Shown here: piece after piece, positions 8,483-10,039 of the stretch
Layout: each line of letters begins with the position of its first letter
Position numbering within the stretch: position 1 is the first letter of the stretch
DNA from: an uncultured Eubacteriales bacterium
Lineage (GTDB): Bacteria > Bacillota_I > Bacilli_A > RF39 > UBA660
Assembly (NCBI GenBank): GCA_905188025.1
Contig: CAJJKI010000007.1
Coordinates: 9,703-73,702 of the forward strand
DNA: 64,000 bases
Reading direction: 5' to 3'
The notes under the pieces: model-generated
What the model was told of the DNA's origin: nothing
Databases searched by the model: none
What the model saw: the letters and a program-made list of their open reading frames with translations, nothing else
Program-made: the position numbers and the translations under genes

Positions 8483-10039
8483 CTATCTATAACCATTAAA
8501 ATCAACAATTAAATTTCTCTTAAGAGTCTTATCTCTATTAATAAACATACTTAATTTTAATCTTAATTCTTCTATCGTAGTATCATATAATCTATTATTA
8601 CTTTCTAATGCCATAATTATATGTTCTATCTTTAAATATTCACTATCTTCATATACTGCATAAGCAAAAGACATATCTATAATAGTAATAAGTAAGTCAG
8701 GATTATATATCTTATCATTATATCTTCTATGACTATCTCCAGTACCATTAATAAGTATCTTAATAATATCATCTAAATAATCATATATCTTATCAATAGA
8801 TACCCCTCTATTAACAGAAGAATTCTCAAAATAATTCATAATAATATTATGTAATAATATATCATTAGGTTCTTCTATATCAATAATTTCAAATCTTCTT
8901 TTAAGAGGATTATTAGCAAAGTATTTATCATATTCACCAGTAGTAGTAGTCCCTATAACTTTAATTCCATCTCTATCAATAAAACTCTTCATCATTGAAG
9001 CCATATCATTAGCTCTATCATCAACTGTAGCACCAGTACCAAACATTGTATGTATTTCATCTAAAAATAATATTGCATTCATATCTTTAACATAATCACA
9101 TATTCTCTGTAACTTATCTTCAAAATCTCCTCTATATTTAGTTCCCGCTACTAATAAATTAGCTGAAGATTCTACTATTATCTTATCACTTAAAAATCTT
9201 GGTACCTGTTTATTCTGTATCAAATAAGCAAGTTCATCTACTAAAGTAGTCTTACCAACTCCTGAAGGCCCTACTAATAAAGGAGATTTCTTCTCACTAG
9301 CTAAAGCAATAATCATCTCTTTAATTTCTTTCTCTCTTCCTACAGCCGGCTCATTAAAATAATTCTTCTCCGTCAAAATAGTACCAATACCCTGTATATC
9401 TTTCTTACTCTTACTTCCTTTACCACTATTCATCTGATCAAACTTATCACTATCTAAATAAGGACCTCCTAGATCAGTATACTTCTTACAAGACTTAATC
9501 ATATTAAGTATAAGTCTAATATCTCCATCATTAGCATTAGTATAATTCTTCAAATAATAAGTAAATCTATTATCATTAAATAAAGATGATCCAAAATTAA
9601 ATCCCGTTTGTTTTAAAGTATATTCCCATCCACGAACTCCGTTATATCCATAATTCTTTATAATTAAATGTAGTATTGTCTCAGTATCATAATTAAATAA
9701 ATTAACATTAGTATTCATATTAACTCTTGTAGCTTTAAGTATAATATTCTTCTTAATATTAGCATTAATTCTCTTATTATTAATAAGTTCATGCATAAAA
9801 GTATTTCCTTTATCATTAATAGAATTTATATCTATTGGAGCTCTATATAATGCTTCAAAAGCTTCTTCTAGTTTCTTATCACTAATATTATCTTGAATCA
9901 TAGCCAATAAATGTAGTAGAGTATTCCCCTCATTATCTCTATATTCTAAACTACCAAACTCTGCTAAGAAATCTTTCTTAGTAATCATCCCATCATCATT
10001 TCTTTTAAATATATTATTTATTTTTCTATTATATCCCAT
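8483..10039 (-). CDS. ankyrin-repeat protein fused to a single ClpA/ClpB D1-like AAA+ ATPase module
   Basis: N-terminal ANK-like repeats (GNTLLHLLA, KGNTFMHELI, TETILHLII). The C-terminal half aligns to Clp D1: Walker A LLVGPSGVGKTTL, an AGTKYRGDFEDKL box, Walker B ILFLDEIHTM, and sensor/small-domain IGTTTTGEYDKYF..KRRFE. Confidence 0.8.
   Translation of the reverse strand: MGYNRKINNIFKRNDDGMITKKDFLAEFGSLEYRDNEGNTLLHLLAMIQDNISDKKLEEAFEALYRAPIDINSINDKGNTFMHELINNKRINANIKKNIILKATRVNMNTNVNLFNYDTETILHLIIKNYGYNGVRGWEYTLKQTGFNFGSSLFNDNRFTYYLKNYTNANDGDIRLILNMIKSCKKYTDLGGPYLDSDKFDQMNSGKGSKSKKDIQGIGTILTEKNYFNEPAVGREKEIKEMIIALASEKKSPLLVGPSGVGKTTLVDELAYLIQNKQVPRFLSDKIIVESSANLLVAGTKYRGDFEDKLQRICDYVKDMNAILFLDEIHTMFGTGATVDDRANDMASMMKSFIDRDGIKVIGTTTTGEYDKYFANNPLKRRFEIIDIEEPNDILLHNIIMNYFENSSVNRGVSIDKIYDYLDDIIKILINGTGDSHRRYNDKIYNPDLLITIIDMSFAYAVYEDSEYLKIEHIIMALESNNRLYDTTIEELRLKLSMFINRDKTLKRNLIVDFNGYR

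What the first reader, a model, noticed from the sequence alone, without database searches (positions are those of the whole stretch)
8483..10039. Unusual architecture: ankyrin repeats fused to a single ClpA/ClpB-D1-like AAA+ module, lacking Clp N-domain, D2 and middle domain
Seen in sequence: residues ~25-130 carry three or four ANK-like repeats. Residues ~230-518 align motif-by-motif to the D1 ring of ClpA/B (Walker A, the AGTKYRGDFE box, Walker B, sensor/small domain with the RRF arginine). Established knowledge: bacterial Clp ATPases have two AAA rings plus N-domains. ANK repeats are protein-protein interaction modules that are uncommon in Firmicutes. Inference: this is a substrate-specific unfoldase or remodeller, or a decoy or defence component. 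It sits next to degraded LRR-like gene fragments, which suggests a variable or accessory neighbourhood.
Basis: partly seen in the sequence, partly recalled or inferred. Interest (0 to 1): 0.65.

Follow-up and report, generated by a model that had tools for sequence, protein, structure and literature searches.

The report
Bacterial ankyrin-repeat single-ring Clp-like ATPase
This is an intact, conserved gene for an uncharacterised bacterial protein that joins an ankyrin-repeat binding domain to a single ClpA/B/C "first-ring" ATPase motor, a layout that resembles, but arose separately from, the human mitochondrial disaggregase Skd3/CLPB.

Summary
ORF 8483-10039 (-) encodes 518 aa in four parts:
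- an ankyrin-repeat (ANK) domain, about residues 30-188;
- a disordered linker, 189-212;
- one complete Clp/Hsp100 D1-type AAA+ module, 213-500, with Walker A, the ClpA-identical AGTKYRGDFE pore loop, Walker B, sensor-1 and an RR finger;
- a short conserved tail.

It has no Clp_N domain, middle domain, D2 ring or ClpP-docking tripeptide.

It is not a truncation or misassembly. The identical protein lies on 7 independent metagenome contigs. About 45 clusters at 50% identity share the full architecture and C-terminus.

The "accessory or defence neighbourhood" reading is not supported. The order gpr-spoIIP <> rpsT -> this gene -> ThiF-PGM-XerD-RarA is kept in relatives only 35-43% identical. The gene has its own extended -10 promoter. 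I found no defence, phage or plasmid signal. Only the ~1.2 kb slot downstream varies.

Best reading, inferred: a ClpP-independent hexameric unfoldase or remodeller whose tethered ANK domains select clients. It works like Skd3 but uses a D1-type rather than a D2-type ring. I found no named family or paper for it.

Verdict: a new variant of a known kind, of moderate interest. Its client and physiological role are unknown.

The parts
8483..10039 (-). Complete coding sequence, 518 aa plus stop: ANK, linker, D1-type AAA+ module and tail
   Evidence: One search lists the ORF. The identical product lies on 7 independent contigs. 28 full-length homologues align end to end.
10073..10101 (-). Likely own promoter: TTGTAA, 17-nt spacer, TATAAT with an upstream TG (extended -10, sigma-A type)
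   Evidence: scores it 10 of 12 with TG. TATGTTATAAT is conserved upstream of the orthologues in L019 and L020. This is a consensus match only; function is inferred.
10109..10126 (-). Intrinsic-terminator-like hairpin ending the upstream rpsT gene. It separates rpsT from this gene.
   Evidence: ACCGAAAAATATTTCGGT followed by a T-run. One search shows a T-run at the same place in the relatives.
10044..10051 (-). Ribosome-binding site AGGGGTGA, ending 5 nt upstream of the ATG
   Evidence: Read directly from the sequence.
9953..10039 (-). N-terminal helices, residues 1-29, preceding the first ANK repeat
   Evidence: AF2 models place helices at 2-13 and 21-28. G29 is nearly invariant.
9476..9952 (-). 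Ankyrin-repeat domain, residues 30-188: three long (~40 aa) TPLH-type repeats plus a capping helical pair
   Evidence: Mean family identity is only 27%.
9404..9475 (-). Disordered, low-complexity linker, residues 189-212, tethering the ANK domain to the ATPase
   Evidence: pLDDT is below 50 for residues 189-212. Family identity is 10%. A 30-residue stretch spanning the linker (186-215 in the window protein) ranges from 13 to 69 residues across the family.
8864..9403 (-). D1-type AAA+ large subdomain, residues 213-392, including the pre-D1 helix
   Evidence: Family identity is 54%.
9248..9271 (-). Walker A motif GPSGVGKT, residues 257-264
   Evidence: K263 and T264 are invariant in 28 of 28 sequences.
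9128..9139 (-). Pore-loop-1 KYRG, residues 301-304, within AGTKYRGDFE
   Evidence: Position 302 is Y in 25, F in 1 and L in 2 of 28 sequences.
9056..9073 (-). Walker B motif ILFLDE, residues 323-328
   Evidence: D327 is invariant in 28 of 28; E328 is kept in 27 of 28.
8891..8899 (-). RRF, residues 381-383: arginine-finger pair acting across subunits
   Evidence: R381 is kept in 28 of 28 and R382 in 26 of 28. It aligns to ClpA ...ARRFQ.
8540..8863 (-). AAA+ small (lid) subdomain, residues 393-500. No M-domain is inserted. The RRYNDKIYNPDLLITIID motif corresponds to Clp D1 R.I.DR.LPDKAIDLID.
   Evidence: Foldseek alignments of 300-330 columns with ClpC, ClpA and ClpB D1. R438, D442, N446 and P447 are invariant. 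No Pfam lid hit.
8486..8539 (-). C-terminal tail, residues 501-518, with the family motif (I/V)(I/V)DFNxY(K/R)K. Role unknown.
   Evidence: Consensus. pLDDT is about 51. Family identity is 35%.
8430..8455 (.). Hairpin GACTAGTA-N10-TACTAGTC with T-runs on both strands. Probably a bidirectional terminator shared with the convergent ORF remnant.
   Evidence: Read directly from the sequence. The scanner did not report it because the loop exceeds 8 nt.

Best explanation
The gene encodes a stand-alone, ClpP-independent AAA+ machine of the Clp/Hsp100 lineage reduced to a single D1-type (classic-clade) ring.

Six subunits would assemble through the ATPase module, with the arginine fingers acting across subunits. 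ATP hydrolysis would drive the KYR pore-loop tyrosines to pull a polypeptide through the central channel. The six ankyrin-repeat domains, each on a flexible 13-69-residue tether above the ring, would capture particular client proteins, an adaptor or aggregates and hand them to the pore.

The outcome would be unfolding, disassembly or disaggregation rather than degradation, because there is no protease-docking element.

It is a vertically inherited chromosomal gene with its own housekeeping-type promoter, found in a clade of uncultured, low-GC, spore-forming bacteria known from metagenome assemblies.

Shown here: the architecture, intact catalytic and pore motifs under conservation, absence of D2, M-domain, Clp_N and the IGF loop, and conserved synteny.

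Inferred: hexamer formation, threading, client selection by the ANK domain, and independence from a protease.
For: - D1 identity.
- Catalytic and pore residues conserved across 28 homologues at 33-81% identity: K263, T264, D327, T365, T366 and R381 in 28/28; E328 in 27/28; R382 in 26/28; pore aromatic Y/F in 26/28. Conserved trans-acting arginines only make sense in an oligomeric ring (inference).
- ANK fold and homology.
- Modular N-terminus. Relatives carry 2-3 tandem ANK modules (P0271, P0273, P0276). A ~436-aa sister group keeps the ATPase at 49-51% identity but has a different N-domain. This is the pattern expected of a client-recognition module.
- The linker is disordered and variable in length, like the tethers of Clp N-domains.
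- No ClpP-loop tripeptide.
- A broader-family member, P0330, fuses two D1-like modules directly to an FtsH-type M41 peptidase. That shows this kind of ring is used to feed a proteolytic chamber, which implies threading.
- Precedent: in Skd3/CLPB, an ANK domain plus one Hsp100-type ring is a stand-alone disaggregase that needs both parts (PMC7343390; PMC9934407).
- Core-gene status: identical protein on 7 contigs; synteny kept at 35-43% identity; own promoter.
Against: - There is no experimental data for any member, and I found no paper on the family.
- No hexamer model could be computed.
- The ANK surface is poorly conserved (27% identity), and the invariant positions are structural. No common client-binding patch is evident.
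- The lid is too divergent for Pfam AAA_lid_9.
- Two family members have Leu instead of an aromatic residue in the pore loop.
- No conserved partner gene or regulon signal gives a physiological role. No CtsR or CIRCE operator lies near the promoter.
- In two-ring Clp/Hsp100 enzymes D2 is usually regarded as the main motor (my recollection, not checked here), so D1 alone may be a weak translocase.
Confidence: 0.55

Rival explanations
1. It is a truncated, frameshifted or misassembled clpB, clpC or clpA gene whose D2 ring was lost through an assembly error or decay.
For: The AAA+ module is most similar to D1 of two-ring Clp proteins.
Against: - The identical 518-aa protein lies on 7 independent contigs from different samples, with the same flanks.
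- 28 homologues of 497-560 aa align to the very C-terminus with a shared tail motif.
- About 45 clusters at 50% identity match the profile from about position 1 to 505.
- The downstream DNA holds a hairpin and a convergent unrelated ORF, not an AAA module.
- phmmer finds no second AAA fragment in the window.
- The N-terminus is ANK, not Clp_N.
Confidence: 0.01
2. It is an anti-phage defence or decoy component on an accessory island. The ANK domain would sense a phage protein and the ATPase would act as the effector or switch.
For: - ANK and other repeat sensors fused to NTPases occur in defence systems (established knowledge).
- The adjacent ~1.2 kb slot is variable. It carries a frameshifted ORF remnant and a possible type I toxin.
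- Weak PADLOC hits: IetA E=2e-6, mad8 E=7e-5.
Against: - The PADLOC hits cover only the P-loop region and are generic.
- Gene position is conserved between rpsT and ThiF in five lineages at 35-43% identity. That is vertical inheritance, not island behaviour.
- No conserved partner gene across subfamilies.
- No full-length relative in 50,697 phage or 72,556 plasmid records, or in viral contigs.
Confidence: 0.05
3. It is the unfoldase partner of a separate protease (ClpP or another), docking through an unrecognised element such as the conserved C-terminal tail.
For: - The conserved tail motif (I/V)(I/V)DFNxY(K/R)K sits on a flexible stalk.
- C-terminal tails dock HslU and the proteasomal ATPases to their peptidases (established knowledge).
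- A relative is fused to an M41 peptidase.
Against: - No IGF/IGL-type tripeptide anywhere in the protein.
- In ClpA and ClpC the ClpP loop lies in D2, which is absent here.
- The tail Tyr is not at a fixed distance from the C-terminus, unlike an HbYX motif.
- No protease gene is adjacent in any of the contexts examined.
Confidence: 0.1
4. It is a sporulation- or germination-specific remodeller, for example acting on forespore or coat proteins. The clue is that it lies beside gpr, spoIIP and spoIVB.
For: - The neighbours gpr (Peptidase_A25), spoIIP and spoIVB (Peptidase_S55) are kept with the gene in five lineages.
- A distant relative lies near spoIIR.
- All contexts seen come from spore-formers.
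Against: - The gene is divergent from gpr and separated from it by rpsT and a terminator.
- Its promoter match is of the sigma-A extended -10 type, not sigma F, G, E or K.
- The rpsT-gpr-spoIIP block is a general Bacillota arrangement (my recollection, not checked here), so adjacency may be only historical.
- Other subfamilies sit in unrelated housekeeping contexts.
Confidence: 0.12
5. It is a non-threading ATPase: an ATP-dependent switch or assembly factor, or a subunit that co-assembles with and modulates canonical ClpC, ClpB or ClpE rings.
For: - D1 rings of two-ring Clp/Hsp100 enzymes are often regarded as auxiliary or regulatory (my recollection, not checked here).
- The pore aromatic is Leu in 2 of 28 sequences.
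- No client is known.
Against: - The pore loop AGTKYRGDFE is identical to that of ClpA and is conserved.
- The D1 module shares only 25-32% identity with ClpC, ClpA and ClpB over the Foldseek structural alignments, which argues against mixed rings.
- Skd3 shows that one ring plus an ANK domain is enough for threading (PMC9934407).
Confidence: 0.15

Closest known systems
ClpA, ClpC and ClpB (class I Clp/Hsp100), D1 ring
   Same: - The AAA+ module is homologous to D1: ClpA TIGR02639 positions 156-358, E=9e-46; PDB ClpA E=2e-37; ClpC E=6e-35; ClpB E=6e-32.
- The pre-D1 helix, Walker A and B, KYRG pore loop, sensor-1 TT, RR finger and the lid motif R..DR.(L)PD...ID are the same.
- Like ClpA, it has no M-domain.
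   Different: - No Clp_N domain, no D2 ring, no C-terminal D2-small domain and no ClpP loop.
- The N-terminus is ANK.
- It scores 156 bits against the ClpA equivalog cut-off of 993, so it is not an orthologue of any named Clp.
Skd3 / human CLPB (metazoan mitochondrial disaggregase)
   Same: - The overall design is the same: N-terminal ANK repeats (four in Skd3), one Hsp100-family AAA+ ring and a short C-terminal extension.
- Neither has a protease partner.
- In Skd3 the ANK domain is required for activity and binds substrates (PMC7343390, PMC9934407).
   Different: - The Skd3 ring is NBD2/D2-like (HCLR clade, GYVG loop). This one is D1-like (KYRG loop, no pre-sensor-1 hairpin in the model).
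- No Skd3 chain is among the 60 best PDB sequence matches, all with E up to 0.33.
- There is no mitochondrial targeting or PARL-cleaved peptide.
- The ANK repeats here are about 40 aa long.
- It is therefore an independent, convergent fusion, not an orthologue.
Single-ring classic-clade AAA+ remodellers with an N-terminal repeat or adaptor domain (EccA: TPR plus AAA; Vps4 and katanin: MIT plus AAA)
   Same: One classic-type AAA ring sits behind a helical-repeat protein-binding domain. There is a weak EccA match: NCBIfam E=9e-7, PDB 9lur E=0.007.
   Different: The ATPase here is clearly of the Clp D1 subfamily, with E-values 30 or more orders of magnitude better. The N-domain is ANK, not TPR or MIT.
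ClpX and HslU (class II single-ring Clp unfoldases)
   Same: They are single-ring bacterial unfoldases with a dedicated N-terminal or inserted substrate domain.
   Different: They belong to the D2-like HCLR clade and dock to ClpP or HslV. Here ClpX matches only at E=0.15.

Membership tests
Class I Clp/Hsp100 (ClpA, ClpB, ClpC, ClpE, ClpL, ClpV) | D1-type AAA+ module with its signature motifs | tested here: met
Class I Clp/Hsp100 (ClpA, ClpB, ClpC, ClpE, ClpL, ClpV) | Second AAA+ module (D2; Pfam AAA_2 plus ClpB_D2-small) in the same polypeptide | tested here: not met
   - The protein ends about 130 residues after the D1 large subdomain.
- AAA_2 matches only at E=0.0017 over the P-loop region, below its cut-off.
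- ClpA D2 scores 7 bits.
- All 28 homologues end at the same place.
Class I Clp/Hsp100 (ClpA, ClpB, ClpC, ClpE, ClpL, ClpV) | N-terminal Clp_N (Clp repeat) domain | tested here: not met
   No PF02861 hit in this protein or in any of the 28 members. The N-domain has the ANK fold.
Class I Clp/Hsp100 (ClpA, ClpB, ClpC, ClpE, ClpL, ClpV) | Reaches the curated equivalog score of a named member | tested here: not met
   ClpA 156 bits against a cut-off of 993; ClpB 128 against 1232; ClpV 126 against 885.
ClpB / ClpC subgroup | Coiled-coil middle domain inserted in the D1 small subdomain | tested here: not met
   The lid (393-500) consists of short helices with no long coiled coil. The alignment shows no insertion.
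ClpP-coupled unfoldases (ClpA, ClpC, ClpE, ClpX) | IGF/IGL/LGF-type ClpP-docking loop | tested here: not met
   No [ILVM]G[FLIM] tripeptide anywhere in the 518 residues. Actual ClpP binding cannot be tested with these tools.
Skd3 / CLPB | N-terminal ankyrin-repeat domain preceding a single AAA+ ring | tested here: met
   for the ANK domain; for a single AAA domain.
Skd3 / CLPB | The ring is homologous to Hsp104/ClpB NBD2 (HCLR clade) | tested here: not met
   All strong matches are to D1. No Skd3 chain is among the 60 best PDB matches. Skd3's NBD2 nature is from PMC7343390.
Skd3 / CLPB | Stand-alone ATP-dependent disaggregase activity requiring both ANK and NBD | not testable with these tools
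   This needs biochemistry.
Functional AAA+ ATPase (general) | Walker A Lys, Walker B Asp-Glu, sensor-1 and arginine finger all intact and conserved | tested here: met
Ring-forming substrate translocase | Hexameric assembly with a pore-loop staircase | not testable with these tools
   Only monomer prediction was available. The pore-loop aromatic is conserved, and the conserved trans-acting arginines imply an oligomer (inference).
Known anti-phage defence systems (PADLOC) | Significant full-length match to a defence-system protein model, with partner genes | tested here: not met
   Only partial P-loop hits, best IetA E=2e-6 over residues 251-332. No partner genes.

The most novel reading that the evidence does not exclude
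This would be the first prokaryotic counterpart of Skd3: a convergently evolved, chaperone-independent protein disaggregase or unfoldase in which ankyrin repeats feed a ring built only from the D1-type module. That would show that the "auxiliary" first ring of Hsp100 proteins can be a complete motor on its own. It would also mean ANK-guided disaggregation is not a metazoan invention.
Probability: 0.3. Interest if true: 0.7.

Novelty: new variant of a known kind. Interest (0 to 1): 0.55.

Why it matters
[quoted passage not shown] A sizeable bacterial family with ANK plus a Clp-type ring shows the combination arose at least twice, on different ring types.

The family gives a compact natural system of about 500 aa for three questions:
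- whether a D1-type Hsp100 ring can thread substrate by itself;
- how repeat domains deliver clients to AAA+ pores;
- what proteostasis task these uncultured spore-formers delegate to it.

The family carries no specific name. The only source name seen for any relative is "AAA family ATPase", on a distant 417-aa one.

Tried and rejected
- **Genome-collection scan.** The alignment-based scan was swamped by the generic Walker A pattern and returned only ordinary ClpA/B/C loci.
- **Second attempt at taxonomy.** A search with the neighbouring RarA/MgsA protein returned only unnamed metagenome sequences. Cluster look-ups gave no names either, apart from "Bacilli bacterium" for a distant 417-aa relative.
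- **AlphaFold-database fold search.** The library was unavailable.
- **Heat-shock regulation.** No CtsR operator lies near the promoter, and window-wide matches are at chance level. There is no CIRCE element.
- **Defence.** PADLOC gave generic hits only.
- **Mobile elements.** Nothing in viral contigs. Phage and plasmid records match only through the D1 of ordinary two-ring Clp genes, with 0 records covering at least 80% of the query. The best phage hit is an 813-aa gene.
- **HbYX-like C-terminal docking motif.** I considered this because the protein ends in ...GYR. I rejected it because the Tyr is not at a fixed distance from the C-terminus across the family.
- **Replacement of holA.** I considered this because holA neighbours rpsT in Bacillus (from memory). 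I rejected it because the module is unambiguously Clp D1.
- **Paralogues.** None in the window.
- **Rfam.** Only 6S RNA was found in the window.
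Full report
**1. The observation**

Window 8483-10039 (minus strand) is an uninterrupted ATG-initiated ORF of 518 codons. It has an AGGGGTGA ribosome-binding site upstream.

Residues 213-500 are a Clp/Hsp100 first-ring (D1) AAA+ module:
- Pfam AAA covers 254-385, E=1.6e-14.
- The NCBIfam ClpA model aligns residues 201-401 to its positions 156-358 of 734, E=9e-46. 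The ClpB, ClpV, ClpK and ClpG models also match only through their D1.
- phmmer against PDB sequences gives ClpA D1 at E=2e-37, ClpC at 6e-35 and ClpB at 6e-32. ClpA D2 scores only 7 bits.
- The motifs are all present: Walker A GPSGVGKT (257-264), pore loop AGTKYRGDFE (KYRG 301-304, letter-for-letter the ClpA sequence in the alignment), Walker B ILFLDE (323-328), sensor-1 TT (365-366) and RRF (381-383).
- An AlphaFold2 model built on 28 homologues has mean pLDDT 83.8. Its top PDB fold matches are all ClpC, ClpB, ClpA or Hsp104, aligned over 270-330 columns. That covers both the large and the small (lid) subdomain of D1.

**2. The ankyrin claim**

In this sequence alone the ANK signal is below threshold: Ank_4 E=0.015 and Ank_5 E=0.037. 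At family level it is secure.
- 14 of 28 full-length homologues hit Ank_4, and 13 hit Ank_2, at E<=1e-3. The best is 6.9e-10.
- A profile of 17 N-domains finds designed and natural ANK proteins in the PDB down to E=2e-27.
- A separate model of residues 1-190 (pLDDT 94.2, pTM 0.89) has only ANK proteins among its 50 best fold matches. These include DARPins, tankyrase ARC and gankyrin, with TM 0.5-0.65.

There are three TPLH-type repeats (GNTLLH 38, GNTFMH 78, TETILH 119). They are spaced 40-41 residues apart instead of the canonical 33. A fourth helical pair caps the domain at about residue 188.

**3. What is missing**

- No Clp_N, AAA_2/D2, ClpB_D2-small or M-domain is detectable in this protein or its homologues.
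- No [ILVM]G[FLIM] tripeptide that could serve as a ClpP-docking loop exists anywhere in the protein.
- Residues 189-212 are predicted disordered.
- Across the family, a 30-residue stretch spanning the linker (186-215 in the window protein) varies from 13 to 69 residues and shows 10% identity.

**4. Not an artefact**

- The identical protein is encoded on 7 independently assembled contigs of up to 226 kb, with identical flanks.
- Its 90%-identity cluster has 90 members.
- Twenty-eight homologues of 497-560 aa, at 33-81% identity, align from Met1 to a shared C-terminal motif (I/V)(I/V)DFNxY(K/R)K.
- An exhaustive profile search of 1.84 billion cluster representatives returns about 45 clusters at 50% identity that match the profile from about position 1-20 to about 505.
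- Downstream of the stop codon are a hairpin and a convergent, unrelated ORF remnant, not a second AAA module.
- No other AAA fragment related to this gene is in the window.

**5. Conservation pattern**

| Region | Mean pairwise identity |
|---|---|
| D1 large subdomain | 54% |
| Lid | 42% |
| Tail | 35% |
| ANK domain | 27% |
| Linker | 10% |

- K263, T264, D327, T365, T366 and R381 are invariant in 28 of 28 sequences.
- E328 is kept in 27 of 28, with one Asp.
- R382 is kept in 26 of 28.
- The pore aromatic at 302 is Y in 25, F in 1 and L in 2.

The ATPase and pore are under strong constraint. Conserved trans-acting arginines imply an oligomeric ring (inference).

In the ANK domain the invariant positions are structural ones: the TPLH histidine H43, L64, F81, N113 and L142. 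The binding surface is free to vary between lineages.

**6. Genomic context**

The gene follows rpsT on the same strand. A terminator-like hairpin (10126-10109) lies between them. After it comes a TTGTAA-17-TATAAT site with an upstream TG (10101-10073). The TATGTTATAAT element recurs upstream of the orthologues in two other lineages.

Across rpsT lie the divergently transcribed gpr and spoIIP, then a Zip transporter and spoIVB. On the other side lie ThiF/TcdA, 6S RNA, a phosphoglucomutase-family gene, XerD-like and RarA/MgsA.

This order is preserved around homologues that are only 35-43% identical: P0006, P0007, P0016, P0014 and P0013. The gene is therefore an old, vertically inherited resident of a housekeeping and sporulation block, not island cargo.

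More distant subfamilies sit in other housekeeping contexts with no shared partner:
- an ABC transporter and an unknown 957-aa ORF;
- MurJ and FemAB;
- YidD, ZnuA-LysM and Ldh.

What does vary is the ~1.2 kb slot between the gene and ThiF. The window's 167-aa ORF there has no Pfam match. It is unrelated to the 152-154-aa ORFs in the same slot elsewhere, and it continues in another frame.

No CtsR or CIRCE operator is near the promoter. PADLOC gives only generic P-loop hits. No full-length relative occurs in viral contigs or in phage or plasmid records.

The organism could not be named. The window has 25-34% GC and carries sporulation genes. A distant relative is labelled "Bacilli bacterium". 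One sister-family contig comes from a Hadza gut metagenome.

**7. The wider family**

- A sister group of about 436 aa keeps the ATPase, lid and tail at 49-51% identity but has a different, unannotated N-domain.
- Some members carry two or three tandem ANK modules ahead of the ring: P0271, P0273 and P0276.
- One relative, P0330 (923 aa), has two D1-like modules followed directly by an FtsH-type M41 peptidase.

This is a radiation of D1-type rings with swappable N-terminal modules. In at least one case the ring is coupled to a proteolytic chamber.

**8. Mechanism**

I think a homo-hexameric, ClpP-independent unfoldase, remodeller or disaggregase is most likely (about 0.55). Six flexibly tethered ANK domains would capture a client or adaptor. 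The KYR pore loops would pull it through the D1-type ring.

- Shown: the architecture, intact and conserved catalytic and pore residues, absence of protease-docking and second-ring elements, a modular N-terminus, and core-gene status.
- Inferred: hexamerisation, threading, the ANK domain as client selector, and a non-proteolytic outcome.

The rivals are scored in the report sections:
- truncation artefact, 0.01;
- defence component, 0.05;
- partner of an unrecognised protease through the tail, 0.10;
- sporulation-specific role, 0.12, which is compatible with the main mechanism;
- non-threading switch or modulator of canonical Clp rings, 0.15.

**9. Comparison with known systems**

By homology the ATPase belongs with D1 of ClpA, ClpB and ClpC. 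It fails the defining features of class I Clp proteins: two rings, a Clp_N domain and the equivalog scores. It also fails those of the ClpP-coupled unfoldases.

By design it resembles Skd3/CLPB, which has ANK repeats plus one Hsp100-type ring and is a stand-alone disaggregase needing both parts (PMC7343390). In Skd3 the ANK domain binds substrates and organises higher-order assembly (PMC9934407).

Skd3's ring, however, is NBD2-like. No Skd3 chain appears among the 60 best PDB sequence matches here. So this protein works like Skd3 at the level of architecture but is not a member of that family. The fusion is independent.

ANK proteins are not especially rare in bacteria: 56% of genera have at least one (PMC3932732). 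The surprise is therefore the fusion partner, not the presence of ANK.

**10. Novelty and score**

I found no named family in Pfam, NCBIfam, PADLOC or PHROGs beyond generic AAA and Clp-like hits. I found no paper describing a bacterial ANK-Clp-D1 protein.

It is a new variant of a known kind, a Clp/Hsp100-derived AAA+ machine. It is conserved, fairly widespread in metagenomes, and parallels a medically important human enzyme. The client and physiological role remain unknown. Interest: 0.55.

Noticed in passing
window 7345-7600 (+): A possible type I toxin-antitoxin-like module.
- A strong promoter-like site, TTGACA-17-TATCAT with an upstream TG, lies at 7345-7373.
- The 5' end of the predicted transcript (7380-7403) is complementary to 7567-7598.
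- Between them are a GAGGAGG ribosome-binding site and a 28-aa very hydrophobic ORF at 7440-7526: MRKKDYTIIFQNFIILLLLLIIILLIIK.
- A minus-strand hairpin terminator lies at 7556-7530.
- It is a single copy in the window and has no Rfam match.
   Followed up: partly
window 7799-8380 (+): A 167-aa ORF with no Pfam match.
- It is not homologous to the small ORFs occupying the same slot in related genomes.
- After its stop, the reading continues in another frame: NNATALTKLNIKKFDFANVTNNTDFLKMAKY.
- This looks like a frameshifted remnant.
- Its resemblance to DUF285/BspA-type surface-repeat proteins rests on memory only and was not verified.
   Followed up: partly
protein P0330 (923 aa), from the representative search; not in the window: A relative of the family combines two tandem Clp-D1-like AAA+ modules (with AAA_lid_9) and a C-terminal FtsH-type Peptidase_M41 domain. 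It also has a Clp_N-looking N-terminus (by eye). I do not recall this Clp-D1 x2 plus M41 protease fusion having been described.
   Followed up: partly
proteins P0271, P0273, P0275 (~900-920 aa) and P0276-P0280 (~730 aa); not in the window: Family members with extra N-terminal sequence ahead of the single D1-type ring. Pfam on the three scanned (P0271, P0273, P0276) shows two or three tandem copies of the ANK module. P0275 and P0277-P0280 are inferred from their length and multiple matched stretches. This suggests the client-binding part has expanded.
   Followed up: partly
L018 8544-11417: In the subfamily at 35% identity (P0027), a 957-aa ORF with no Pfam match starts 14 bp after the ANK-AAA gene. 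It is probably co-transcribed and could be a lineage-specific partner or client.
   Followed up: no
L023 8591-9616 and L029 4610-5650: The ANK-less 436-aa sister protein (P0090) and an ANK-bearing member (P0101) both lie next to a ZnuA+LysM gene. This hints that the two architectures occupy orthologous positions and that the N-domain was exchanged in place.
   Followed up: no
window 6319-6499 (+): 6S/SsrS RNA (Rfam RF00013, 67.6 bits), between the phosphoglucomutase-family gene and ThiF.
   Followed up: no
window 8486-8539 (-), residues 501-518: A conserved C-terminal tail motif, (I/V)(I/V)DFNxY(K/R)K, sits on a low-confidence stalk. Its role is unexplained. It could dock to a partner, to the protein's own ANK groove or to a neighbouring subunit.
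   Followed up: partly
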